Notes: generated by a model not told the origin, from the sequence alone. Positions 24,824 through 62,045 are shown, counted from the first letter of the stretch. The stretch: 64,000 nucleotides of DNA from Nitrosopumilus sp. (GCA_963667665.2 OY763927.2:352001-416000), one strand, 5' to 3'. Numbers and translations are program-made.

Positions 24824-26294
<1,471 letters not shown>

Positions 26295-26442
26295 TAGACA
26301 AGGAAAGTGTACGGATGTACATAATCTTCACAAAATCATCGATGCAATGCATCACGAAAGTGTTGTATGAAGGATGTAGCAGACCCCTGCCAGGGGGTTT
26401 GCAATGATCGTCGTGCATAGTCGTGTAATATGTGGCTGAATT

Positions 26443-29463
<3,021 letters not shown>

Positions 29464-29533
29464 CCGTATTAGGCGAATAACCTGTACGGTGCTTATGCAC
29501 GATGATCACATATTACACGATGATTTCAATTCT

Positions 29534-29573
29534 AATTACAGAATAGGATTTCCTATTTTGTAATTTTATTTTT
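29534..29573 (+). terminator. Hairpin plus T-rich tract just inside the island left end
   Basis: AATTACAGAATAGGA / TCCTATTTTGTAATT inverted repeat. Confidence 0.5.
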
Positions 29574-29603
29574 AATGTCCCTAGCGGATGCTATGCAATC
29601 CCG

Positions 29604-30050
29604 TTGAATAAATATCACTTCAAATTAACCAACTCTGTGACTCCTAGATTGTCTGATAAAGAACTTGGATTCTTGAAAATATGTTATCACTGTTATAACG
29701 ATGGGAAAAATTTTCTTAGTACAATACGTGATATTCCAATACCAAATTTTACTGTACATGATATGATTAACTGCGAACGAAGTCTAATGCAAAAAGATTT
29801 GCTTAGTGGTTCAACAAATCGAACAAATGCTGGTGTCCATTATTCTCCCAATTCTATGACACAAAAAGGAATTAACGTTGTAAAAGAAATTTTAGGTGAT
29901 CCATTATTTGGTGATTTAGAACCTGCAATTAATACTGGTTTTAACGATAAAGGATATCGTTTTAAAAAATATGTCAAATCACATCTATTCCAAATCCTTG
30001 GATTGACTATTGGTGTTATTGGTGTGGTTGCGACGATCTTATCTATATGA
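29604..30050 (+). CDS. Hypothetical protein with C-terminal TM helix
   Basis: 148-aa ORF; start uncertain. Confidence 0.6.
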   Translation: MNKYHFKLTNSVTPRLSDKELGFLKICYHCYNDGKNFLSTIRDIPIPNFTVHDMINCERSLMQKDLLSGSTNRTNAGVHYSPNSMTQKGINVVKEILGDPLFGDLEPAINTGFNDKGYRFKKYVKSHLFQILGLTIGVIGVVATILSI

Positions 30051-30070
30051 TTCTATTATGAGTTGGATTT

Positions 30071-30379
30071 TTGATACTAAATGGAAAAAAACTAGACGAA
30101 ATGAAGAATCTGGAATCTGGAATCTGGCCATTAAAACCTGCATCCAAAGAACCCCCAAAACCTACTACTTCCCAATTAATCTACATGGTAGTATTATCTT
30201 CCGTTGTAATTCTTGTTGGTAGTGCCATGTTAGGTTCTAAACAATTTGTGGAAACTGGATGGATCCTTATTGGGTTAGGGATTATTGGTGAAATTACAAT
30301 TGTTTTAAGCGCTCATAATGAATTGAGAAATTTAGATAAAAGAATACGAAAATTAGAGAATGAATCTGACAAAAAATAA
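30071..30379 (+). CDS. Small two-TM hypothetical protein
   Basis: 102-aa ORF, two hydrophobic helices and a coiled-coil tail. Confidence 0.6.
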   Translation: MILNGKKLDEMKNLESGIWPLKPASKEPPKPTTSQLIYMVVLSSVVILVGSAMLGSKQFVETGWILIGLGIIGEITIVLSAHNELRNLDKRIRKLENESDKK

Positions 30380-30512
30380 AACATATTCTAAGATCAATTT
30401 AATTAGTTTAATTTTTTATGTTAAGTGGGTATTCAGTATCATTTTTCGAGTGATATAGTCTTCGTGGGCTCGAATACCCTTTTTTGATTTGAATAATTTT
30501 TAATCATAGACT

Positions 30513-30746
30513 CTAGATCTTTTCTTTGACCATATGAAGAATGAGTTTTTCGTTTACAACATCTACTATCACTCGATACATTCCAACCCTGAATTTGTAA
30601 AATGGTGAACTTGTCAGACGTTCAAGATATGAAAATGGGTTTTTTTCTACCTCGCTTGTCTTTAAGAGGATTCTTTTTGCATCGTCTTTTGGAAGTTTAG
30701 ATAGTTTTTTTTCTGCCTTTTTAGACCAAACAGCAGTCCATTTCAT
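30513..30746 (-). CDS. relE: RelE/ParE family toxin (C-terminus looks shortened)
   Basis: AEKKLSKL, YKFRVGMYRVIVDV; lacks the usual GHRxxxY tail. Confidence 0.85.
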   Translation of the reverse strand: MKWTAVWSKKAEKKLSKLPKDDAKRILLKTSEVEKNPFSYLERLTSSPFYKFRVGMYRVIVDVVNEKLILHMVKEKI

Positions 30747-30982
30747 ATACCATATTTCTTCTTAAGGTCATCATTTGTGATGTATTTACCATTTTTAAAA
30801 TCATTAATTGATTGTTCTATTTCTAGAATGTCTTTCTTAGATAATAATTCGGAATCATCTTCATTTAGTGTATTTACCATACGATTAATCATGGCCTCAA
30901 AGGATTCACTAGGATGGTTTTTCATAGTACTCCACGTTTCTTTTGAGTTTTTAGAAACTTGAATGGATGTCATTAATTCCAT
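30743..30982 (-). CDS. Cognate antitoxin
   Basis: TSIQVSK..ESFEAMINRM..EQSINDFKNGKYIT; ATGA overlap with the toxin. Confidence 0.8.
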   Translation of the reverse strand: MELMTSIQVSKNSKETWSTMKNHPSESFEAMINRMVNTLNEDDSELLSKKDILEIEQSINDFKNGKYITNDDLKKKYGI

Positions 30983-31057
30983 AGTTTGCTATAGAATACT
31001 ATAGTATATAAACATTATACGCAAAGTTTAAGCCAATATGTTTAATAATCACTATGT

Positions 31058-31357
31058 GTGTATGTGATTATGTCACAAAATGACGAAGTGAAAATTGAGA
31101 ACAAGACAATTCGTATCCCAGCTGCGATGTACTACAAAGCAGTAGAAATTACAGGTATGTTGTCTGCAATTGCCGGTTACAACTATTCTCTATCAGAAAT
31201 AGTATCAGAAATGATCACAATGTGTCATACTTCATGGTATCCGCAACTAACTGGAACCATACAAGATGAGAAAGCACGAGCAACCATGAGAGCAGATCTT
31301 CAGAAAAATCTTGAATTCAAAGAAGGGTTAGACAAGACTCTCAAGATTAGAAAATAG
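31058..31357 (+). CDS. Hypothetical protein, possibly DNA-binding (RHH-like)
   Basis: KTIRIPAAMY..SLSEIVSEM; divergent from the TA operon. Confidence 0.6.
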   Translation: MYVIMSQNDEVKIENKTIRIPAAMYYKAVEITGMLSAIAGYNYSLSEIVSEMITMCHTSWYPQLTGTIQDEKARATMRADLQKNLEFKEGLDKTLKIRK

Positions 31358-31573
31358 TACGGCAAAATAATTTGGCACAGGAACTCCGTGAGACAATATC
31401 TTCCAAATCGGTGGAATCCAGAAGATATTGCCCCTCTATGTCAATTATACCGATATACTATTCCTAATCCTTTCCAACTAAAAAATATTCAGATGATTAA
31501 TTTTCATATTATATGCTACAAGAATTCCATACTTTCAGTGTAAGACATGGAATAGTTATCTGTGTTTTACAGA

Positions 31574-32932
31574 TCATTTTTTTTCATATTCAATTTCATA
31601 TAAGATTAGACCTGATGTAAAAGAAGTTAGATTATGTGCCATGTTAGATGCATCTCTCAAAAGTTCATGACCAATATTTTCTGTTGCGTGTTGAATACGA
31701 TTTCTTACATCAACGACAGCATTAACATAAGGTTCACGTCTTTCTTTGTCTTTAAGATATTCTAGCTGCTCAAAGATTTTTCCCAGTTGCTTTCTAGCAC
31801 TAATATTATTTCCTTGCACTCGAAATTTCTCAACAAAATTCTTTTCATCACTATCTAGTTTCTTTAGTAAATTATTGAAAAATGAAGTATAATCTTCATC
31901 AGACATTAGTTTCTTTTTAAAATTATAATTATAATAAAACATTAATGATTGATATAGATTTTCAAATCTGTTAATTGGAGAAAGATTTTCCTTTATTTCA
32001 TTCTCAAAAAATTTATCGAAAAAGTCAGGCATTTTTTCATATTTTTTAATCCAATTTTGTAAGATTCTTTCAAAAATAAATGGATTATAAAGGTATGAAA
32101 ATTTTTCTCCAGATTCAAGTTTCTTTGCATGCTTAAATCGTCTTTGAAATAAGAACAAAGACAATATGGACTCGGATGGTGAATCACCTTCTTGTCTATC
32201 CATATGACAGTAAATGTTCTCTTCTATAACGTATCTTCCTTGTAAAAACATAAAAAAATATTTGATAATCTTATTCAATCTCAAATACTCTGCATGTGGA
32301 AATGATTTTCCATCTTTACTTACTATTCCAAAAGTCACGGTCTGTTCTAATGAAATATCAAAATTACCTTGTGTACTACCATAGGAACCTATGTTGCGAA
32401 TTTCTATTTCAAAATCAAAGGATTCGTTCAATGAGCCCTTGATATTAGGAAATTTTTTCAATAGAACGTTATCATCTTTTTTATCTTCATGATTTAGAGT
32501 TGCAAACACAGTTGGTTTGTTTAACCATTCACGAAAATTCGAATAAACAAATCTGACTTTGTTAAATACTAATTTTTCATAATCTGTGATTTGCTTGTCA
32601 CCTAATACAGCTTCAACTGCGAATGTAGAAGTTCTTGTAATCCCATCACGATTACCGCTAAACATACTTTCCTGAGGAACCAGATTTACAAGGGTACACG
32701 AATATGGTTGTCCGTCAACTATTCCTGTTAATATAGAAAATGCTTCATGATCATGTTTGAATGGGAGATTTTTTAAAGTCAAAAAAAGCCCGTTGTTTGG
32801 ATCATATGAAAATGAACCTCTATAACCTTCATTTTCTATGAAAAACTCACCTGTTTTTGTAAATGATTTGGATAATTTCATTGACATTGTTTTTACATAT
32901 CTAAATTTAATATTAATTGAATTATTATTCAA
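31574..32932 (-). CDS. ApeA-like HEPN-domain protein (putative antiviral RNase)
   Basis: C-terminal RNRIQH (Rx4H); ApeA-NTD-like N-terminus (G.F, CTL, FVYSNFREW). Confidence 0.75.
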   Translation of the reverse strand: MNNNSINIKFRYVKTMSMKLSKSFTKTGEFFIENEGYRGSFSYDPNNGLFLTLKNLPFKHDHEAFSILTGIVDGQPYSCTLVNLVPQESMFSGNRDGITRTSTFAVEAVLGDKQITDYEKLVFNKVRFVYSNFREWLNKPTVFATLNHEDKKDDNVLLKKFPNIKGSLNESFDFEIEIRNIGSYGSTQGNFDISLEQTVTFGIVSKDGKSFPHAEYLRLNKIIKYFFMFLQGRYVIEENIYCHMDRQEGDSPSESILSLFLFQRRFKHAKKLESGEKFSYLYNPFIFERILQNWIKKYEKMPDFFDKFFENEIKENLSPINRFENLYQSLMFYYNYNFKKKLMSDEDYTSFFNNLLKKLDSDEKNFVEKFRVQGNNISARKQLGKIFEQLEYLKDKERREPYVNAVVDVRNRIQHATENIGHELLRDASNMAHNLTSFTSGLILYEIEYEKK

Positions 32933-33011
32933 TCTTTACTGAACCCCAAAACACCGACAAATACGCCATATTTTTCGTCTAAAACATCATTAATTGCTAT
33001 GCTTAATCAAA

Positions 33012-33090
33012 ATTGAACTTCAGTAAATATTGAACTTCAGTAAATATTGAACTTCAGTAAATATTGAACTTCAGTAAATATTGAACTTCA
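33012..33090 (+). repeat. 17-bp tandem repeat, 4.6 copies
   Basis: (ATTGAACTTCAGTAAAT)x4 plus ATTGAACTTCA. Confidence 0.95.
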
Positions 33091-33272
33091 ATGATTATTG
33101 AAGATAATAATAATAATTAATGTAAATTAATCACAAATAGATCGAACTCACGAAACCGAAGGTAACTGTGATTAAGGACCTGAGAATGGTTCTTAATCTT
33201 TTTAGTTTATTATGATTTTTGGTGCTGTGTCATTGATGGGACATTTTCTTCGTGTTTTCAAGTGGGACATTG

Positions 33273-34184
33273 TTAATCTCGTCCTTTCCACCATCTTCTA
33301 AATAACAATGAGAAAATTGCTCCTGATGGGATTCCTACTATGGTTCCAATACTAATTGTAGGTGCTAAGTAAACATCTCCTATCCATAAACCAGCATTTG
33401 ACCCCCACTCAAAATGAGTTCTAGGTCTAAGTAGTAAAGAAACTGTTTCTGATTCTTCTTTTTCTTTACCTGCATCATCAGTATACTGAACGATTATTGT
33501 AAACGGAATGAATTGTTCATAATCAACATCACCTTGTCCTAAAGTAACAAGTTGGGCACGAATTGATATTGGTGTATCTTTTGGAATTGATGAAAAGGTA
33601 TGCTGTTTTTCTCCTCTGAATATTATTTCTTCTGGAGGTATAATTTGCACAGTTACATCTCGGATATTGGTTCCCTGTCCTTCAATTTCAACAACAAATG
33701 GAAATTCAGCATCAGTGAAAATGGAATCTGGAGTTATGGTTCGTATCACTAATTGTGGTTGATCTGTAACAATGATTGGTATTATTGTATTGTAAAAAAT
33801 GGGGCTGTCTTTCCCACTAGTGAAATTTAAATTGAAAAATTGTTTACCTTGTGTTGCATTATTTGGCACAATAAAGTCAAATGTTTCTCCATAGTATCCA
33901 TCAGGTGCTAATCTGTGAATATCTATTCTATTTTTATCAACAGGAATGAATGATTTTTGCCCATCTATTGTAATAACAATATTTTCTTTTTCAGCAGATG
34001 AAGATGTATTTTTTACAACAAAAGATACTGTGAATTTGTCACCTAAAACAACCGTTACTGGATATGTGATTGTTGCATAACCATACCTTTCAAATTCAAT
34101 ACTAGTAGTCTTACCATAGGCAAAACTTGGAATGAATAGAATACATACTATGACAATTATTATGATTGTTTTATGTTTGAACAT
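33273..34184 (-). CDS. COG1361-like S-layer/Ig-fold surface protein
   Basis: Signal peptide from MFKHK, beta-rich body, C-terminal TM plus RRWWK. Confidence 0.65.
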   Translation of the reverse strand: MFKHKTIIIIVIVCILFIPSFAYGKTTSIEFERYGYATITYPVTVVLGDKFTVSFVVKNTSSSAEKENIVITIDGQKSFIPVDKNRIDIHRLAPDGYYGETFDFIVPNNATQGKQFFNLNFTSGKDSPIFYNTIIPIIVTDQPQLVIRTITPDSIFTDAEFPFVVEIEGQGTNIRDVTVQIIPPEEIIFRGEKQHTFSSIPKDTPISIRAQLVTLGQGDVDYEQFIPFTIIVQYTDDAGKEKEESETVSLLLRPRTHFEWGSNAGLWIGDVYLAPTISIGTIVGIPSGAIFSLLFRRWWKGRD

Positions 34185-34461
34185 TTTCTTTGATATTTTG
34201 TAGATTTTTGAATTAAGGTTTTCCATTTATTATTTCCTTGAATCTCAATACCACATAACTCTGCTGGTGTTTTTCCATTTAATCCCATGTGATGTCTTAC
34301 GTAGTTGTGGTAAATCTGACATCCCTCAAAGATCATGGAATCTTTTGTTTTTACTCCTCGCATTACTTACTCGCAAACGGTTGTTTTTTAGCCAATAACC
34401 TATTTTTCAACCATTCTGGGCATGTTATTTTTGGTGTTTCAACCTCTTGCTTCATGTCCAT
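34160..34461 (-). pseudogene. Internally deleted IS6-like DDE transposase (N-terminal stub plus C-terminal tail)
   Basis: MDMKQEVETPKITCPE stub joined out of frame to MRGVK...IYHNYVRHHMGLNGKTPAE...NKWKTLIQ, homologous to the transposase tail at 51772-51960. Confidence 0.85.
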
Positions 34462-34597
34462 GAGCCTTTGTTGAGCCTGTGATATAGAGACAATATCCCC
34501 GTATTCGACACATAGTCAATACGGAGATTATGCACGATGATCATATATTACACGACTAATCCTTTTTTACCCTAAACTATGTTTTGATTGTGAATTT

Positions 34598-34810
34598 TTG
34601 AAAAACCGTGTGGAATATTGTAAAGTAGGGGATGATAAATGCCCAGATAGAACAGCAGACGACCCAGAGATTGTAAAGTTTGCCAAAGATAATAATTTGA
34701 TTATAGTCACTAAAGACATCAAGATGATTAATGAGTGTAAATTTGAAAGTGTGAAATATATAACAATTAATGATTTAGACTTTGCCAAGAAGATAATAAA
34801 TTATAATTCT
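34598..34810 (+). pseudogene. PIN-like (DUF5615-type) fragment ending at an IS end
   Basis: ADDPEIVKFAKDNNLIIVTKD motif; frame runs into the TIR at 34811. Confidence 0.6.
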
Positions 34811-34862
34811 GGTTCTGTAACGTTATGGGGATATAGAATGAAATATGGATCTTCTAAGGATT
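34811..34862 (+). repeat. Orphan IS6-type terminal repeat
   Basis: GGTTCTGTAACGTTATGGGGATATAGAATGAAATATGGATCTTCTAAGGATT, related to the end at 51718. Confidence 0.85.
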
Positions 34863-35006
34863 GAAAATTTGGCTCTGTCAAACCTGCAGTTGATAAAATA
34901 GATGTAAAGAATCGGTTGATTTAGGTTTGAGCGATACCGTATAATTTCAATAGGTTATACTACAATAATCATGCGTGGAGTGGAAATTTGTATGAATTTA
35001 TCAGAA

Positions 35007-35040
35007 GGTTCTGTAACGTTATGGGGATATAGAATGAAAT
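35007..35040 (+). repeat. Second orphan IS6-type terminal repeat, direct orientation
   Basis: 34-bp identity to 34811-34844. Confidence 0.85.
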
Positions 35041-35047
35041 GTGAATT

Positions 35048-35506
35048 TTATTTGGATTCTATATTTCTAAGGGTTGTTTGAATACCAAAATCTTTCTTTG
35101 ATTTTGGGGCCTTAACAAAATCTTCCAATGAAGGAAGTTTTGGCACAATTCCATTAAAATAATCCAATATGGAATAAATCTGTAATTTGGGATATTTTTC
35201 TCCCAATGGGGTTTCAAATATTCCTGCTTTTGCAGCTGCTTCTTTCATCTTTCTTGTAGGTTCTCTAAGACAAATAAACACGCCAAGTTCTGCCTTTTCA
35301 CTATCCATAGTTCCAATTAAATCTCTAACCATTCCAGGATTAAGACTATCTCCACCTTTTACAGATACTATAATCTTGGCATCAATTCTATTACCATTCT
35401 TGTCTTTTCCCAACTGGATGAATCCCCTGCCATCAACACCTTTGTCTCCAACCTGTTTTCTGTTTGGCAATACGTTTGGAATCAGTGTTACCGCCCATGC
35501 CTCAAA
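35048..35506 (-). pseudogene. C-terminal Mrr-like restriction endonuclease domain of a truncated R-M gene
   Basis: GDKGVDG, IIVSVKGG, VRDLIG..AELGVFI; 5' part missing. Confidence 0.75.
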
Positions 35507-36452
35507 CATGGTCTACAACACTGTCGACTCGCCAAATCTCTCAAGTGTTACTGACATGTCCTACATGTTCTCGCACTCCTCCTTCAACGGCGACCTCTCC
35601 AACTGGAATGTCTCATCAGTAACTGACATGTACTACATGTTCTATGGCTCACCCCTCTACGGCGGCATCTCCGGCTGGGACGTCTCATCAGCAACCGACA
35701 TGTCCTACATATTCCTTCACTCACAATTCACCGGCGATCTCTCCGGCTGAGATGTCTCATCAGCAACCGACATGTCCTACATGTTCAGTGACTCACCCTT
35801 CAACGGTAATCTAGGCAACTGGTACATCACACTTGACAACGCGTCAATTGCCGGAATCCCGGGGACGGTCGGAAACATCGCAGCGCAGAACGAGTTCATT
35901 GCAACTCAAGTGTTCACATACGGTATTGGATCCGGTGGCGGCTCGGAACACTTTGGCATAAACGGCACCGAATTGATCCTGATGACTGCTCCTGATGACA
36001 GTCCGGCAACCGTCAACATAACCTCCATCACTGGCGCCAGGGACTTTGGCACATCCAATTCTTGCATATTTGAGATAACTTTCACGCCAATCGCCACCCT
36101 AGACAATATTGCCCCCAGGATTGCATCAATCGAGAGAAGCAGCCCCATAGCCCAAATCACAGACAGCCAGACGCTGATCTACCGTGCGACCTTCAGCGAG
36201 GACGTGATGGGAGTAAATACATCTGACTTTGAATTATCCTCTGACAGTACTGGAGGCAGCGGTACCGGTCCTGTTACCGGCATCTCAGGCTCAGGTAGCG
36301 TATACTATGTGGCAGTCTCTGCTATACGAGACGGGACATACAACATTGATCTGATATCGCCAGGCCACGGCATTGCAGATGCAGCTGGCAACCCTCTGAC
36401 CAATACTTTACCTGTAGGTGCAGACCGCACATACACCGTTACCACCCCCTAA
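35499..36452 (+). pseudogene. DUF285/BspA-type repeat surface protein, 5'-truncated, internal TGA at 35748
   Basis: FNGDLSNWNVSSVTDMxYMF repeats; TGA where Trp is expected; C-terminal module homologous to the giant-gene modules. Confidence 0.85.
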
Positions 36453-51650: not shown

Positions 51651-51771
51651 GTTATTATAATATGATGTTTTTATTTAAGTATTTGGTGTAATTGATCATT
51701 TAATACTCTGTCAAAAAGGTTCTGTAACATCTTCGAGGGAAACATGAAATACAGATCTTCTAAGGATTCGT

Positions 51772-53247
51772 TTATTCTGTAGCCTTGTTTAATGAGGCAT
51801 TTTGTATGATGGTTTTCCATTTATTTTTTCCATCAATTTCAATCATTGAGGCTTCGGCTGGAGTTCTACCTTTTAGAGCTCCATGTTTTTTTGTGAAATT
51901 ATAGTAGACTCTCATTCCATCTAAAATTGGAGTATCCATCTTTTTGAGACCTCTGAAAACCTTTTCACGATCTCTAATTTCACCATTAAGGCGTTCCATC
52001 TTGTTGTTGTTCATATCACCCTTTAGGTGAATATGTCTGATATGGTTAGTTTTCTTGCCAAACACTTTCTTTGATGACTTCATGTAAGCTGGCAATCCGT
52101 CAGTTATGAAATTTCTGGGATTCTTTCCAGCTTGTTTCTTGGTTAATTCTAGTAAATTATCTGCATTGTGTTGAAACTTTGTTGTCGCCATATCACTAGC
52201 TAGCCAAAATCTACTATCATCATCCATTGAAGCAAACAGATAACATTGTTTGCCATTTACCTTAATCCATACCTCATCAGCCCTGAACCAGTCGCCAACT
52301 CTTGGAACTATACCATTGAGATAAACAAAAGTTAGTTTGGAATAATCTGTTTTCATATATGCTTCTGCAACCCATTCATCTTCTGCTGTTACTTTATGTA
52401 GTACACATTCCTCTGGAATTTCCTTTCGTTCACGATAATTCTCAATCCATTTATCTTTAATCTCTTTCCATTTACCATGCTTGTCTATTCTGCCTTCATG
52501 TTTTGTTTTTTCAAATTCGTCATTCTTCCAAAACCCAAACCATGTAGATTTTTTTGAATCATGTGGTACTTTGGCACGAAAAACCATGATGCATGTGATT
52601 ATTCCAACTGGATTAAATAATTCGTTAGGCATACTCATTACCGCTTCCAATGTATGTTTTTTTAACAAATCCTCCTTTTGCGGAGTTGGAGTAGTGGCAC
52701 AACTAACAGGAACAATTGCTACCACCATCCCATTCTTTTCTATACTGTCAAGACAATTAGATATAAAATTCAATTCATGTAATCCTTCACCTTTTTGAGA
52801 ATATGGTGGATTAAGAAAACCTACAGTGCACTTGTGTTTTTCAAGTATTGTGCCAGTCATGGAAAAGCAGTTTTTTTGATATATGTGTGTTTTACCGTCT
52901 CCCCTCAATATCATATTGGCACATGCCAAAGCAAACATGTTTGACTGTTGTTCTATTCCTATCAATTGAGTTTCTTTGATGCCTTTCTTTTTAGATTCAT
53001 CATTTCCAGCTTCATCAGTCATTTTTTTCATGGCACTAATTAAAAAACTGGCTGTTCCACAACAATTATCAAATACAACATCGTCTTTGTCTATATTTGC
53101 AATATCGACAAACAATTCGGTTATGTGTTTGGGAGTAATGACAATTCCTAACCCTTTCTTGTCTCCACCAGTATATCTTAAAAATTCTCCATAGAACTGA
53201 CCAAGTATGTCGATTGATCCGTTAGAATCAGCAAAGGGTAAAAACAT
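51772..53247 (-). CDS. Chimeric ORF: N6-adenine DNA methyltransferase fused in frame to an IS6 DDE catalytic domain
   Basis: FDNCCGTASFL and NPPY, then after ~52325 RADEVW, ITDG, NNNKMERLNGEIR. Confidence 0.85.
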   Translation of the reverse strand: MFLPFADSNGSIDILGQFYGEFLRYTGGDKKGLGIVITPKHITELFVDIANIDKDDVVFDNCCGTASFLISAMKKMTDEAGNDESKKKGIKETQLIGIEQQSNMFALACANMILRGDGKTHIYQKNCFSMTGTILEKHKCTVGFLNPPYSQKGEGLHELNFISNCLDSIEKNGMVVAIVPVSCATTPTPQKEDLLKKHTLEAVMSMPNELFNPVGIITCIMVFRAKVPHDSKKSTWFGFWKNDEFEKTKHEGRIDKHGKWKEIKDKWIENYRERKEIPEECVLHKVTAEDEWVAEAYMKTDYSKLTFVYLNGIVPRVGDWFRADEVWIKVNGKQCYLFASMDDDSRFWLASDMATTKFQHNADNLLELTKKQAGKNPRNFITDGLPAYMKSSKKVFGKKTNHIRHIHLKGDMNNNKMERLNGEIRDREKVFRGLKKMDTPILDGMRVYYNFTKKHGALKGRTPAEASMIEIDGKNKWKTIIQNASLNKATE

Positions 53248-54157
53248 TAATCTCTATATCATGAATCAAACTATGTAGAAGATGAATTGATTTTCTATCA
53301 TTATCTTTTTCTTTAGTCAATTCAGGATGTACTTTGATAAACTGGTATGGATATAGTATAGTTTCCATTTTGTTTTCATCTAATTTTCCAGCAATCAACA
53401 CCTCTTTGATTGTAGTTACCAATAATGTTGCAAGACTTTTTGATGTCTTTTTCTTTGAATAACTTGCTCTGAAACTATCATCCGTCAAAGCTATCAAAAT
53501 ACCGCTTATCAAGAGAGGTTTTTCTGGTTCACTTAATTTTACATTGTCTCTTAAATCATTGTAAAGTTTTTTTGAATATTTCATCAATTTTGAAATATCA
53601 TTTTTCTCTTTTTCAGGGTCTTTTTTGTAAAGTGAAACATAATCTTCAAATTCACGAATGTCTTTATCTAGTTTATCAATTATTTTTTTAGATTTTAATT
53701 GTAAGAATGTAGATACTTTTAATTCAGATTTATTTTGTCCACTTGCTGCAATAGAGATCATCAAATTCCTTTGCCAAATATTCTGAATAAAGTAAAACCC
53801 CATCAACTGCATAATCTTTTGGTTTGTCTCTATTCTTACTTTCATGTTTTTTTGTATCTGCCTTGCACTCTATAATTATTATAAGGTCAGGTATCTCATC
53901 AAACGTAACAATAAATTCAGGACTCCCCCCCCAAACCGCTTTTTGAAGCATTTTTCAACAATTTTTTAATTCTTGGATTCTGCGACTGTTGTTCTTCTAT
54001 GGTTACTTTGGAATATTTTTTTTTGATTTGCCTTTAGAATATCACGCACAATATCTTCAGTAATTCTTTCATTCAATTTTGAATTATCTGAAAATTGATC
54101 TTTAAGATCAAGGGATTTTTTTGATAGCTTTTTAGTCAAAATTTCTAAAGCAACCAT
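53228..54157 (-). pseudogene. Frameshifted N-terminal endonuclease part of a BcgI-alpha-like R-M enzyme
   Basis: Fragments NERITEDIVR, PEFIV..IIIECKAD, AVDGVLLY, SEPEKPLLISG in three ORFs. Confidence 0.75.
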
Positions 54158-54333
54158 TAGAGTATCTTACCTCGTAGGCAGATCAAGTGTTTGATTTGAA
54201 TAGTGCTGACTGTGGGTTTAGACTCAGCAGTATTTTTTGAATTTGGAAAAGATTTGTATTTCATGCTTCCCTCGAAGATGTTACAGAACCGTCAAAAAGA
54301 TCATTTTTATACTAACTAATTCCTGTTAATTTT

Positions 54334-57545: not shown

Positions 57546-58274
57546 GTGATGCTAAAAAATATTTTTCTAGTCTTATTGGTAGTTATAGTGTCACTTACTA
57601 CAAATCATGTATATGGACAGTCTATGAATTCTCAACTTACTCCGACAGATGTAAGTAATCCACCAACTAATCTAATCTCACAATTATTTTTGGGTGATAT
57701 TATTTTATCTTGGAGTTCCCCTACCAATTATCATACTGCATATGATATACAACGCTACAACACTACTGATAGTGTTTGGGTTACTATTGGCACAACAACT
57801 GATGCATCATTTATTATAACAAGTGATAGTAACGATGGGGCTGATACAATTATTGATACAAACAAATATCGTACTATTATTGATAGTGGAACTTCAATAC
57901 TTGAAACAAATGAGATATCTATTCCTCCAATAAGTAGAGTAGCTCCACATGGCATTACTTCTGTGTTAAGTATTGGGCATCAAAGAACAGTATCTACTGC
58001 AGATGAAGAAACACCATACTATACTTCTAATCTTGTGGGTAGTAATACTGTATCATATATCAAAAGTGAGACTACTGTTGAGAGAGGTCATGTTTCATCT
58101 GGGATAGATTCACATCCCTATATTTACATTGATGGTCAATATCATTCATATGCTAATTGTCATTCTGATATTGGATCACCTTCAAATGGTACATTTCCAT
58201 TTTTTTCATTTGACCATATGGTATCTTTTCTTTTTCTTTCATTGGAGGTGATGCAAAAATTTCTTCTGAGATAA
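57546..58274 (+). pseudogene. Secreted fibronectin-III-like protein, 3'-truncated
   Basis: Signal peptide, PPTNL..LSWSSP..YDIQR..W; tail reads antisense into a small minus-strand signal-peptide ORF starting near 58332. Confidence 0.55.
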
Positions 58275-58597
58275 TTGTAAATCCAAATGTTAGTAGTAAC
58301 ATTGACATAAGAACTGCAGTATACTTTTTCATTTCCTTATCTTGTTATTTTTCAAAATTGTTCTTAAGTTAATGTTAGTTGAAAATATTACACAACTTGT
58401 ATTTTTTCCCATTTTTGGGATTTGACATAAATTTTGCTTATTGTTCTTCAAATTCAATGTCATTTTGCAGTTCTTCTGGCAGTCCTACCCACCACTCTTT
58501 ATTGTTATCAGACATACTATCCAAAAAAGATCAAATGTTGCTAATAGATCTGTTGGTTAAATCTTTAAAGTAGTTGTTCAACAAAATCTGACAAAAT

Positions 58598-59071
58598 CTA
58601 ATCTTTCGAATAACTGATATCTGATGTGTCATCTGAAATCTTAATTTTTACAACAAGTGTATCTCCTAATTTGTTAAACACTCTCTGACGTTTCTCATTA
58701 GTTAGAATCCAGCCTAGAAGTACATCTACTGGAAGTAAAAATGCTTTTCCAAAACTACCAATAATGACTCCTTTCAAGCTAGGACTGTTTCCAGATATAT
58801 TAGTCACCTTCAAATTTAGAATTTTCTTCCCAATTGTTTGACCTGTTTTATACTCTAAGATTATCCAATATGCAAAAAATAAGAGACTTGTTGGAATGTA
58901 TTGTGTGCTTTTTGCCAAAATTGCATCTTCATCATAATCTATTGTTCCAAATGATGCAAAAATTATGGATGTTGAAATTATTGAAATTATTATAAAATCA
59001 ATTAACCAAGCAAGGAATCTATCTGTCCATTTTGCAAGAATTATTTTTGAAGATACCCCTGAATCACTCAT
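58598..59071 (-). CDS. RDD family protein
   Basis: RFLAWLID, GQTIGKKILNLKV, QRVFNKLGDT. Confidence 0.92.
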   Translation of the reverse strand: MSDSGVSSKIILAKWTDRFLAWLIDFIIISIISTSIIFASFGTIDYDEDAILAKSTQYIPTSLLFFAYWIILEYKTGQTIGKKILNLKVTNISGNSPSLKGVIIGSFGKAFLLPVDVLLGWILTNEKRQRVFNKLGDTLVVKIKISDDTSDISYSKD

Positions 59072-61199: not shown

Positions 61200-62045
61200 T
61201 TGAAATTATTTTTGGTCTCAATAAATCCACTTGATGTATTTCTATGGACTCTTCGTCGAAACGAAAAAGATGTTGTAAATCTTTACAATGCATTATCTCC
61301 AGTAATGCAACTTGCAACTGGAGGATCTATGCTGAATTTTGGATATTGGGATAATGAAAATTCTGATCCAATTTCTGCTCAAAACAATCTGTGTTCTAAT
61401 TTTGCAAAAATGGCTGAACTAGAAACTGCTAAAACTATAATTGATGTTGGAAGTGGATTATCGGCCCCTGCAATTTTTTGGAGAAATAATTTTGAAAACT
61501 TGTCAATTTATTGTGTAAATATCAATCATTCTCAACTTCTTTATTCAGGTAGTCAAAAAAATATAGAATTCATAAACTCGTCTTCTACAAAATTACCTTT
61601 CTCTAAACATTCTATTGACCGTGTTTTGGCATTAGAATCCGCACAACACTTCAAACCAATTTCAGAATTTATCTCTGAATCAAAAAGAGTGTTATCTGAT
61701 TCTGGATTACTTGTTTTGGCAATTCCTGTTACTGTAAATACATCATCAATTTCAAAATTAGGAATTTTAAAATTTACCTGGTCATCTGAACATTATAGTT
61801 TAGAACAGATTCGTAAGGTAGTTACTTTAGGTGGGTTTACAATTTCTGAAGAAAAACTAATTGGTTCTTCTGTTTATGATCCTTTGGCTGATTATTATCT
61901 TCAAAAAAGAAACCAATTGAAAGAATTAATCTCACAACAATACCCATCATATGTTGAATCTCTTCTTTTCAAATCAATTCAAAAAATGAAAAAAGCATCA
62001 AAAGAGAAAATAATTGATTATGTGTTATTAAAATGCCATTTGTAG
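61200..62045 (+). CDS. Class I SAM-dependent methyltransferase
   Basis: LNFGYW, IDVGSG, LESAQHF. Confidence 0.9.
   Translation: MKLFLVSINPLDVFLWTLRRNEKDVVNLYNALSPVMQLATGGSMLNFGYWDNENSDPISAQNNLCSNFAKMAELETAKTIIDVGSGLSAPAIFWRNNFENLSIYCVNINHSQLLYSGSQKNIEFINSSSTKLPFSKHSIDRVLALESAQHFKPISEFISESKRVLSDSGLLVLAIPVTVNTSSISKLGILKFTWSSEHYSLEQIRKVVTLGGFTISEEKLIGSSVYDPLADYYLQKRNQLKELISQQYPSYVESLLFKSIQKMKKASKEKIIDYVLLKCHL

What the first reader, a model, noticed from the sequence alone, without database searches (positions are those of the whole stretch)
29493..34555. Defence island inserted into the 23S rRNA 3' processing stem, with a 28-bp duplication and a DDE enzyme in the integrase position
Seen: a 28-bp direct repeat (1 mismatch) bounds 5 kb. 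The right copy continues CTA...TTTTTT, which extends the pairing with the spacer arm TAGTCGTG and looks like the displaced native trailer and terminator. The left copy keeps the processing stem, and a new hairpin follows it. The only recombinase relic is an IS6-like DDE transposase starting ~67 bp inside the right repeat; no TIRs and no tyrosine/serine recombinase are visible. Cargo is a RelE-type TA pair, an ApeA-like HEPN protein and a surface protein. Established: IS6 elements use TIRs and 8-bp duplications, while att-like repeats usually go with tyrosine integrases at tRNA genes. Inference: possibly an undescribed class of TIR-less, site-specific DDE elements using the conserved rRNA trailer as a safe harbour.
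Basis: partly seen in the sequence, partly recalled or inferred. Interest (0 to 1): 0.85.

Follow-up and report, generated by a model that had tools for sequence, protein, structure and literature searches.

The report
Duplicated 23S trailer flanking accessory genes
Two unequal copies of the short sequence that follows the 23S rRNA gene bracket 5 kb of toxin-antitoxin, defence and surface genes in a Nitrosopumilus genome, but the transposase next to the second copy is only a broken remnant of an ordinary insertion sequence and not the enzyme that put the genes there.

Summary
The repeat is real and longer than reported. It is 86 nt (29435-29520 vs 34470-34555), 77% identical, and 27/28 identical in the processing-stem arm.

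Public contigs from three studies run through the right copy, so that copy is not an artefact.

The 5 kb is the rRNA-proximal part of a 29-kb variable region. The first gene conserved in relatives (RDD) lies 0.3-8 kb after 23S there, but 29 kb here.

The DDE "enzyme" is only the last ~60 codons of an IS6-type transposase.
- Intact relatives have long GGTTCTG... inverted ends and 8-bp duplications.
- None of their other copies sits beside an rRNA trailer.

One distant congener (G154) has the same toxin-antitoxin module between two trailers and no DDE piece. Its outer trailer is of the genus's other sequence type.

Best reading: a toxin-antitoxin module carrying its own trailer copy recombined with the host trailer. 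The ApeA-like gene, the surface gene and the IS debris were added later. No integrase is present, and the mechanism is inferred.

The proposed new class of TIR-less, site-specific DDE elements is not supported.

The parts
26404..26440 (+). 5' leader arm of the 23S processing stem. It is identical over its last ~32 nt in 6 of the 7 relatives read and differs at one base in G153 and in G002; one further difference lies at its 5' edge in G002. Both trailer types are covered.
26441..29439 (+). 23S rRNA gene
   Evidence: Rfam RF02540, 2675 bits
29435..29520 (+). Left trailer copy, contiguous with 23S. It comprises ATAGAGACA (29449-29457), a hairpin (29460-29492) and the 28-nt processing-stem arm (29493-29520). 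An RNA contig joins 29452 to leader position 26429, the junction of a circular pre-23S.
29521..29603 (+). Distal trailer module: TGATTTCA, a hairpin, ATTTTTAA and a small hairpin TAGCGGATGCTA. It is 92% identical to G154 over 97 nt (29496-29592), ~80% to G014, and absent from sister G153.
29604..30379 (+). Two ORFs (148 and 102 aa) with no family match. The start region of the first is conserved in G076 but is not open there.
30513..30982 (-). Type II toxin-antitoxin pair: ParE/RelE-type toxin (30513-30746) and antitoxin (30743-30982), overlapping by 4 nt. It is single-copy in this genome and 82% identical in DNA to a pair at the same place in G154.
31019..34380 (.). Segment absent from the G154 version of the module. 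It holds a 99-aa ORF, the ApeA-like HEPN gene (31574-32932, -), 17-nt tandem repeats (32992-33119), a 317-aa membrane-anchored protein (33273-34226, -) and the IS6 relic. Contigs in two studies join 31018 to 34530 and so skip it.
34160..34372 (-). C-terminal relic (about residues 309-369) of an IS6-type SWIM/zinc-ribbon/DDE transposase. It has no ends and no catalytic domain.
34381..34469 (.). Spacer that is shared, together with the first 18 nt of the right trailer copy, only with G154 (74% over 34381-34488). It is not derived from the transposase or from 23S.
34470..34570 (+). Right trailer copy: a degenerate 23S-end piece, ATAGAGACA (34484-34492), a hairpin and the 28-nt arm (34528-34555, one mismatch at 34544), then CTAATCCTTTTTTAC.
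34811..35066 (+). Two solo IS6-type terminal repeats (34811-34870 and 35007-35066), both starting GGTTCTGTAACG.
51718..54290 (.). Complete IS6-type unit in the same variable region. It has 43-nt inverted ends and the 8-bp target duplication GTCAAAAA, and carries an N6-methylase::DDE fusion ORF.
58223..59071 (-). Right limit of the variable region. Sequence conserved with relatives resumes at 58223 (G153) or ~58440 (others). The RDD-family gene is at 58598-59071.

Best explanation
The stretch is the rRNA-proximal part of a 29-kb variable region downstream of the single rRNA operon.

It is bracketed by two homologous but non-identical 23S 3' trailers. The left one is attached to 23S and serves as the processing-stem arm.

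Proposed origin (inferred): a small toxin-antitoxin module that carried its own copy of a Nitrosopumilus 23S trailer entered by a single crossover (Campbell-type recombination) with the host trailer. In this genome the crossover fell within the 28-nt arm, the only near-identical stretch. That would leave two hybrid trailers:
- left: the host's proximal part followed by the incoming distal part (TGATTTCA, hairpin, TAGCGG hairpin);
- right: the incoming proximal part followed by the host's own T-rich end.

The recombination was most likely homologous, or catalysed by an enzyme encoded elsewhere, because the module has no recombinase.

The ApeA-like HEPN gene, the surface-protein gene and the IS6 fragment were inserted afterwards between the toxin-antitoxin promoter and the spacer. 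IS6-type elements then kept remodelling the neighbourhood.

Shown: the anatomy, the homologies, the state of the DDE gene and the structure in G154.
Inferred: the order of events and the recombination mechanism.
For: REPEAT. The 86-nt repeat has 27/28 identity in the arm against 39/58 elsewhere. This is the same pattern seen between trailers of different species: the arm is kept in all 9 genomes with this trailer type, while the hairpins differ.

DISTAL PARTS.
- The left distal part is 92% identical to G154, whereas flanking core genes are 74-75% identical. It is absent from sister G153.
- The right copy ends as the single trailers of G152, G141 and G076 do and pairs better with the leader.

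G154. It carries 23S, then a trailer of this genome's type, then the same toxin-antitoxin pair (82% in DNA), then the same spacer, then a complete trailer of the genus's majority type. That outer trailer is 81-87% identical over ~100 nt to the native trailers of six of the genomes compared.

SECOND TRAILER COPIES ARE RARE. At kb scale they were found only in G000 and G154 among 401 family genomes, 150 of which carry the motif. G014 has a partial one.

THE SEGMENT 31019-34380 IS EXTRA. It is missing from G154, and contigs of two studies skip 31019-34529.

NO RECOMBINASE IN THE WINDOW. None of the 16 tyrosine-recombinase matches in the genome lies in the window, and there is no resolvase or Cas1 match anywhere.

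THE RIGHT COPY IS REAL. It is bridged by contigs of three studies.
Against: - No circular or free form of the module was found. The two trailer cores are absent from 2.9 million viral contigs, and the one metagenome scan gave only a chance hit.
- No empty-site allele of this species was seen.
- The repeat has different extents in the three genomes (86 nt here, whole trailers of different type in G154, 146 nt in G014). One fixed crossover site therefore does not explain all cases, and extra recombination steps must be assumed for G154.
- The two hairpins are about equally like the sister's (31/38 vs 33/43), so which proximal part is native is undecided.
- The higher identity of the toxin-antitoxin pair to G154 (82% vs 74-75%) is modest and could reflect constraint.
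- The left junction (29440-30485) had no DNA contig laid on it, so adjacency there rests on the assembly and on the parallel in G154.
Confidence: 0.5

Rival explanations
1. A site-specific integrative element whose recombinase (tyrosine integrase or similar) has been lost, or acts in trans, uses the 28-nt processing-stem arm as its att core. This would be analogous to islands that target the 3' ends of tRNA genes and bring a replacement end.
For: - The architecture resembles attL/attR, with a near-identical 28-nt core and dissimilar outer arms.
- The incoming copy replaces the arm, so 23S processing is preserved.
- The genome has 16 tyrosine-recombinase matches elsewhere that could act in trans.
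- Identity between the G000 and G154 left copies begins at the core.
Against: - There is no recombinase gene in either version of the module.
- G154's outer copy is a whole trailer of another type with no shared 28-mer, and G014's repeat has other limits.
- Only 2-3 of 401 genomes show a second copy.
- No attP-bearing virus or plasmid contig was found.
- Among 68 mapped thaumarchaeal integration sites in PMC6563490, none is described at an rRNA gene, and 'rRNA' occurs 0 times in the main text. Supplements were not seen.
Confidence: 0.2
2. One reading: the IS6-like DDE protein is the integrase of an undescribed TIR-less, site-specific element that targets the rRNA trailer.
For: - A DDE-family remnant lies about 100 nt from the right trailer copy.
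- There are no inverted ends between 29440 and 34810.
Against: - Only residues ~309-369 remain and the catalytic domain is missing.
- Homology to IS copies stops at 34372. The ORF that starts at 34461 is unrelated and in another frame.
- Intact relatives have GGTTCTG... TIRs and 8-bp duplications.
- The other 9 family matches in this genome are not beside a trailer core. In the other 30 genus genomes with homologues, no hit that can be placed lies beside the rRNA operon.
- G154's version lacks the remnant.
Confidence: 0.03
3. The trailer was duplicated in place in an ancestor by slippage or unequal exchange. Genes then accumulated between the copies, and the arm was kept similar by gene conversion or selection. 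The resemblance to G154 reflects vertical descent with loss elsewhere.
For: - Trailers in this genus often carry local tandem duplications. Four of 151 genomes have two arm copies 87-92 nt apart, and several have 42-nt units in tandem.
- The two hairpins resemble each other (30/44) and the sister's.
Against: - G154's outer copy belongs to the other trailer type, which a local duplication cannot give.
- The left distal part is far more similar to G154 (92%) than the core genes are (74-75%), and it is missing in the sister.
- Vertical descent would need losses in nearly all of the 151 genus genomes.
Confidence: 0.12
4. The second copy, or the placement of the 5 kb next to 23S, is an assembly artefact.
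For: - rRNA operons are often misassembled.
- No DNA contig was laid on 29200-30485.
Against: - Contigs from three studies run through 33061-34559/34623, across the relic, the spacer and the right copy.
- 14 runs hold half or more of the stretch's words.
- The chromosome-level genome G154 has the same order: 23S, trailer, toxin-antitoxin, second trailer.
Confidence: 0.03

Closest known systems
Genomic islands integrated at the 3' ends of tRNA/tmRNA genes by tyrosine integrases (attL/attR)
   Same: - Direct repeats derived from a stable-RNA locus bracket accessory genes (toxin-antitoxin, defence).
- The incoming copy replaces the displaced part, so the RNA stays functional.
- The displaced native end lies at the far side.
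   Different: - The target is the transcribed 3' trailer of 23S rRNA, outside the mature RNA.
- There is no integrase in or next to the module.
- The extent of the repeat differs between genomes.
- The phenomenon is very rare (2-3 of 401 genomes).
IS6 family insertion sequences (IS26/IS257 type; the family hallmarks are recalled, not taken from a call)
   Same: - The relic is homologous to proteins with the IS240-type DDE domain.
- Intact relatives end in GGTTCTG... inverted repeats and make 8-bp duplications.
   Different: - The copy in the finding is only a ~60-codon tail without ends.
- The intact archaeal relatives carry N-terminal SWIM and zinc-ribbon parts, long (43-56 nt) ends and passenger genes.
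Campbell-type or homology-facilitated insertion of foreign DNA anchored on a conserved sequence (mechanism recalled)
   Same: - There are two hybrid copies of the homologous segment around the inserted DNA.
- The crossover lies in the most conserved stretch.
- No dedicated recombinase is needed.
   Different: - No donor circle or donor strain has been observed.
- The means of DNA transfer in these archaea is unknown.
Hypervariable regions next to rRNA genes in streamlined marine microbes (for example SAR11 HVR2 between 23S and 5S; recalled)
   Same: A strain-variable block of surface, defence and mobile-element genes sits at a fixed place beside the rRNA genes. The place is conserved across the genus while the content differs.
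   Different: - This case is in an archaeon.
- The block lies downstream of the whole operon.
- Part of it is bracketed by duplicated trailers.

Membership tests
IS6-family insertion sequence (for the DDE remnant) | DDE transposase with an IS240-type catalytic domain | tested here: not met
   The remnant has no Pfam hit and aligns only to residues ~309-369, beyond the DDE domain. Its full-length homologues in the genome do hit PF13610.
IS6-family insertion sequence (for the DDE remnant) | Terminal inverted repeats (GGTTCTG... type) at both ends | tested here: not met
   There is no GGTTCTGT on either strand between 29440 and 34810. Intact relatives have them.
IS6-family insertion sequence (for the DDE remnant) | 8-bp target-site duplication | tested here: not met
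   There are no ends, so there is no duplication at the remnant. It is met for the window's IS at 51718-54290 (GTCAAAAA) and for one G157 copy (AAATTAAC).
Integrase-mediated integrative island | Direct repeats (attL/attR) at the borders | tested here: met
   86-nt repeat with a 27/28 core.
Integrase-mediated integrative island | Tyrosine or serine recombinase or Cas1-type integrase encoded at one border | tested here: not met
   Pfam scans of 28 ORFs between 29.6 and 62.0 kb found none; smaller ORFs were not scanned. Six-frame searches of the whole genome place no PF00589, PF00239 or PF01867 match in the window. G154's module holds only the toxin-antitoxin pair.
Integrase-mediated integrative island | Empty site in close relatives, and the same core in independent insertions | tested here: inconclusive
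   Sister G153 has a single trailer but different downstream DNA. G154 and G014 have repeats with other limits.
Type II toxin-antitoxin pair, ParE/RelE with RelB/ParD | Small toxin of the ParE/RelE fold preceded by an overlapping antitoxin gene | tested here: met
   The toxin matches PF05016 at 28.9 bits (cut-off 23). The genes overlap by 4 nt. The antitoxin has only a weak match to NF050811 (22.4 bits, cut-off 60).
ApeA-like HEPN defence protein (PADLOC PDC-S58 / Cas13-ApeA) | Sequence match over the protein, including the HEPN region | tested here: met
   PDC-S58 at E 6e-18 over residues 24-448; Cas13-ApeA at E 6e-16 over residues 287-426. Catalytic residues and activity were not tested.
Archaeal 23S processing stem | Leader and trailer pair, and cleavage followed by ligation gives a circular pre-rRNA | tested here: met
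   Predicted leader-trailer duplex. One RNA contig joins 29452 to 26429. This rests on a single run and a single contig.

The most novel reading that the evidence does not exclude
A small integrase-less module, stabilised by its toxin-antitoxin pair, carries a surrogate 23S processing-stem arm. It moves between Nitrosopumilus lineages by recombining with the host's rRNA trailer and replaces the arm each time. The rRNA trailer would then act as a safe harbour and as an entry point where further defence and surface genes accumulate.
Probability: 0.2. Interest if true: 0.65.

Novelty: new variant of a known kind. Interest (0 to 1): 0.35.

Why it matters
If the trailer really serves as a recombination anchor, it would add rRNA 3' trailers to the short list of stable-RNA sites where archaeal accessory DNA enters. 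It would also help explain why the place just downstream of the single rRNA operon is variable across the genus.

The case shows in addition that a recombinase relic beside a repeat can be incidental debris.

As it stands it concerns two or three genomes and has no demonstrated mechanism, so its weight is modest.

Tried and rejected
EXCISION AND EMPTY SITE IN READS. The four runs laid gave no DNA contig over 29200-30485. A joint from the left to the right arm could therefore be neither seen nor excluded.

FREE FORMS.
- Neither arm type was found in viral contigs.
- The spacer's 21-mer hit one unrelated GC-rich metagenome contig.
- The scan of all species genomes returned only the 8 genomes already known.

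SPACER 34381-34469.
- It has no significant similarity to the 23S 3' end or to the transposase.
- Its 32-codon ORF found nothing in 151 genomes, with the best foreign E-value 0.075.

OTHER NEGATIVE SEARCHES.
- Rfam at E<=1 over 29430-35100 gave no match, and no tRNA was found in the window.
- Inverted repeats around three intact transposase genes of this genome were not clearly above chance. Their copies are too diverged (67-81%) to define ends. The ends were defined instead from G157 and from the window's own IS.
- The last 1400 nt of 23S do not resolve which relatives are closest.
- The hairpin comparison does not show which proximal part is native.
- Earlier findings of this scan: none on this genome.

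Full report
WHAT IS THERE

The window holds one rRNA operon: 16S at 24824-26294 and 23S at 26441-29439.

The reported 28-bp repeat is the best-kept end of a longer direct repeat.
- It spans 29435-29520 and 34470-34555, 86 nt at 77% identity.
- Identity is 39 of 58 in the first part and 27 of 28 in the last 28 nt.
- There is no third copy in the 1.89-Mb genome.

Each copy consists of:
- a short piece resembling the last bases of 23S;
- the motif ATAGAGACA;
- a hairpin;
- the arm TTATGCACGATGATCA(C/T)ATATTACACGA.

The arm is complementary to the leader upstream of 23S. The leader's last ~32 nt are identical in 6 of the 7 relatives read; G153 and G002 each differ there at one base, and G002 differs once more at the arm's 5' edge.

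One RNA contig of a public run reads from 23S to 29452 and then continues with leader sequence from 26429. This is the junction expected of a circular pre-23S made by cleavage in the processing stem. That such circles are usual in archaea is recalled, not taken from a call.

THE REPEAT IS NOT AN ARTEFACT ON ITS RIGHT SIDE
- 20 public runs of 9 studies hold the stretch or part of it, and 14 of them hold half of its words or more.
- Contigs of three studies run through 33061-34559 or 33061-34623, across the transposase relic, the spacer and the right copy.
- No DNA contig was laid on 29200-30485, so the left junction rests on the assembly and on the parallel in G154.

THE 5 KB IS PART OF A LARGER VARIABLE REGION

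In relatives, the first conserved genes after 23S are an RDD-family gene and a methyltransferase gene. They lie about 0.3 to 8 kb from 23S. Here they lie at 58598-59071 and 61200-62045. Conserved sequence resumes at 58223 against G153 and near 58440 against other relatives.

Between 34.6 and 58 kb lie:
- a DUF5615 fragment and an Mrr-like fragment;
- an rve fragment and an IS4/IS5-type transposase gene;
- two giant proteins with P-domains;
- transporter pieces;
- an N6-methylase::DDE fusion ORF.

- A ParE/RelE-type toxin with an overlapping antitoxin gene.
- A 452-aa protein matching PADLOC PDC-S58 and Cas13-ApeA.
- A 317-aa protein with hydrophobic ends and no family.

THE DDE GENE IS DEBRIS

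The 67-codon ORF at 34160-34363 aligns with residues ~309-369 of ~373-aa proteins. Those proteins have SWIM, zinc-ribbon and IS240-type DDE parts. This genome has 10 matches to that family.
- DNA homology to such genes in 30 of 150 other genus genomes stops at 34372.

Intact relatives are ordinary IS6-type elements.
- G157 has two 2829-bp copies (99.97% identical) with ~56-nt inverted ends starting GGTTCTG. One copy has the 8-bp duplication AAATTAAC.
- The window's own unit at 51718-54290 has 43-nt ends and the duplication GTCAAAAA.
- Two solo ends of this kind lie at 34811 and 35007.
- No other copy placed in this or other genomes lies beside a trailer arm.

COMPARATIVE EVIDENCE ON THE TRAILERS

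The genus has two trailer types.
- Ninety-seven of 151 genomes have the majority type.
- Nine of 151, this genome among them, have the type seen here, with a species-specific hairpin before the arm. A scan of all species genomes found no others.

Across 401 genomes of the family, 150 carry the motif. A second copy at kb distance occurs only here and in G154. Other double counts are overlapping matches within one trailer, or look like chance matches far from the operon. G014 has a partial second copy of 146 nt at 83% on another contig.

G154 is no closer to this genome than most of the genus: its flanking genes are 74-75% identical in DNA and about 70% in protein. After its 23S it carries, in order:
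- a trailer of this genome's type, whose distal part is 92% identical to 29496-29592;
- the same toxin-antitoxin pair, at 82% identity;
- a segment homologous to 34381-34488;
- directly after that, a complete trailer of the majority type, 81-87% identical over ~100 nt to the native trailers of G008, G003, G002, G009, G001, G007 and G011.

G154 has no ApeA-like gene, no surface gene and no DDE piece there.

The sister genome G153 (flanking proteins 88-92% identical) has one trailer that ends ACACGAC followed by a T-rich run. The right copy here ends in a similar way. G153 lacks the distal module that follows the left copy.

INTERPRETATION

The arm is kept and the rest diverged. Trailers of different species look like this, so the two copies probably spent most of their divergence as working trailers of different lineages. 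The distribution of foreign-like and host-like parts points the same way:
- left distal part: like G154;
- right distal part: like the single trailers of relatives;
- the spacer and the junction before ATAGAGAC: shared with G154.

This fits a single crossover between a trailer carried by an incoming toxin-antitoxin module and the host trailer.

The three genomes differ in the limits of the repeat, and no recombinase is present. I therefore favour homology-driven recombination, or an enzyme acting in trans, over a dedicated site-specific system. This step is inferred.

The segment 31019-34380 is a later addition. It is missing in G154, and contigs of two studies join 31018 to 34530 at depths equal to or above the main form. 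Only 30 letters lie on the shorter side of that joint, so it is a hint and not proof.

WHAT REMAINS OPEN
- Which proximal part is native.
- Whether the module still moves.
- Why three transposase fragments break at nearly the same residue: the relic here, a stand-alone C-terminal ORF in G004, and a degenerate fragment fused to the toxin-antitoxin promoter in G004.

LITERATURE
- In PMC6563490 I read passages found by term search. They report 68 mapped thaumarchaeal integration sites: 39 in tRNA genes, 15 intergenic and 14 in the 3' parts of protein genes. The word rRNA does not occur in the main text. Its supplements were closed.
- A search for islands at rRNA operons (listing only) gave nothing on trailers.

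VERDICT

The headline inference of a new class of TIR-less site-specific DDE elements is not supported. What is left is a rare, integrase-less, trailer-bracketed module at a variable site next to the rRNA operon.

Noticed in passing
window 29452 joined to 26429 (RNA run X18): One metatranscriptome contig reads from the 23S 3' end to 13 nt past it and continues with the 5' leader 12 nt before 23S. This is the junction of a circular pre-23S rRNA. It places the cleavage at CATAG|AGACA, inside the motif conserved across 14 genera.
   Followed up: partly
window 29583-29598; trailers of relatives (L005-L020): A small hairpin (TAGC-GNNA-GCTA type, with compensating changes and GNRA-like loops) follows the 23S trailer in both trailer types. 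In several genomes it is repeated in tandem 42-nt units. Its function is unknown.
   Followed up: partly
window 30428-30484; G076 contig (L084, oriented 2324-2381): A 57-nt structured element (8-bp closing stem GGGTATTC/GAATACCC, then a T-tract) lies downstream of the toxin gene. It is 88% identical to a sequence just after a tRNA gene 1.5 kb downstream of 23S in G076. It has no Rfam match.
   Followed up: partly
window 34160-34372; G004 contigs (L216, L217): Three independent transposase fragments break at nearly the same residue (~309-315). They are the relic here, a stand-alone C-terminal ORF with its own start in G004, and a degenerate fragment ending there that is fused to the promoter of the same toxin-antitoxin pair in G004. 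The coincidence is unexplained.
   Followed up: partly
window 51718-54290: A complete IS6-type unit whose transposase ORF is fused in frame to the N-terminal two thirds of an N6-adenine DNA methylase (491 aa). It has 43-nt inverted ends and an 8-bp duplication.
   Followed up: partly
window 31018/34530 and 33259/34266 (runs X1, X5, X9): Public contigs show forms that skip 3511 nt (in two studies, at depth equal to or above the main form) and 1006 nt. These are strain-level structural variants, or other IS copies, in the same samples.
   Followed up: no
window 32992-33119 and 35539-35806: There are six tandem 17-nt units between the ApeA-like gene and the surface gene. There are also three 72-nt repeat units inside broken ORFs of a repeat protein.
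   Followed up: no
window 34595-34777 and genome C1:888092-888274: The start of the DUF5615 (PIN-like) fragment just right of the second trailer has a 99% identical 183-nt copy 500 kb away. The IS end at 35005-35100 has a 100% identical copy at C1:289237-289332.
   Followed up: no
G157 loci L214/L215: The intact IS6-type element of G157 (2.8 kb) carries three passenger ORFs besides the transposase. One of them is a 213-aa protein with an N-terminal hydrophobic segment placed after the transposase gene, an arrangement reminiscent of the relic followed by the surface gene here.
   Followed up: no
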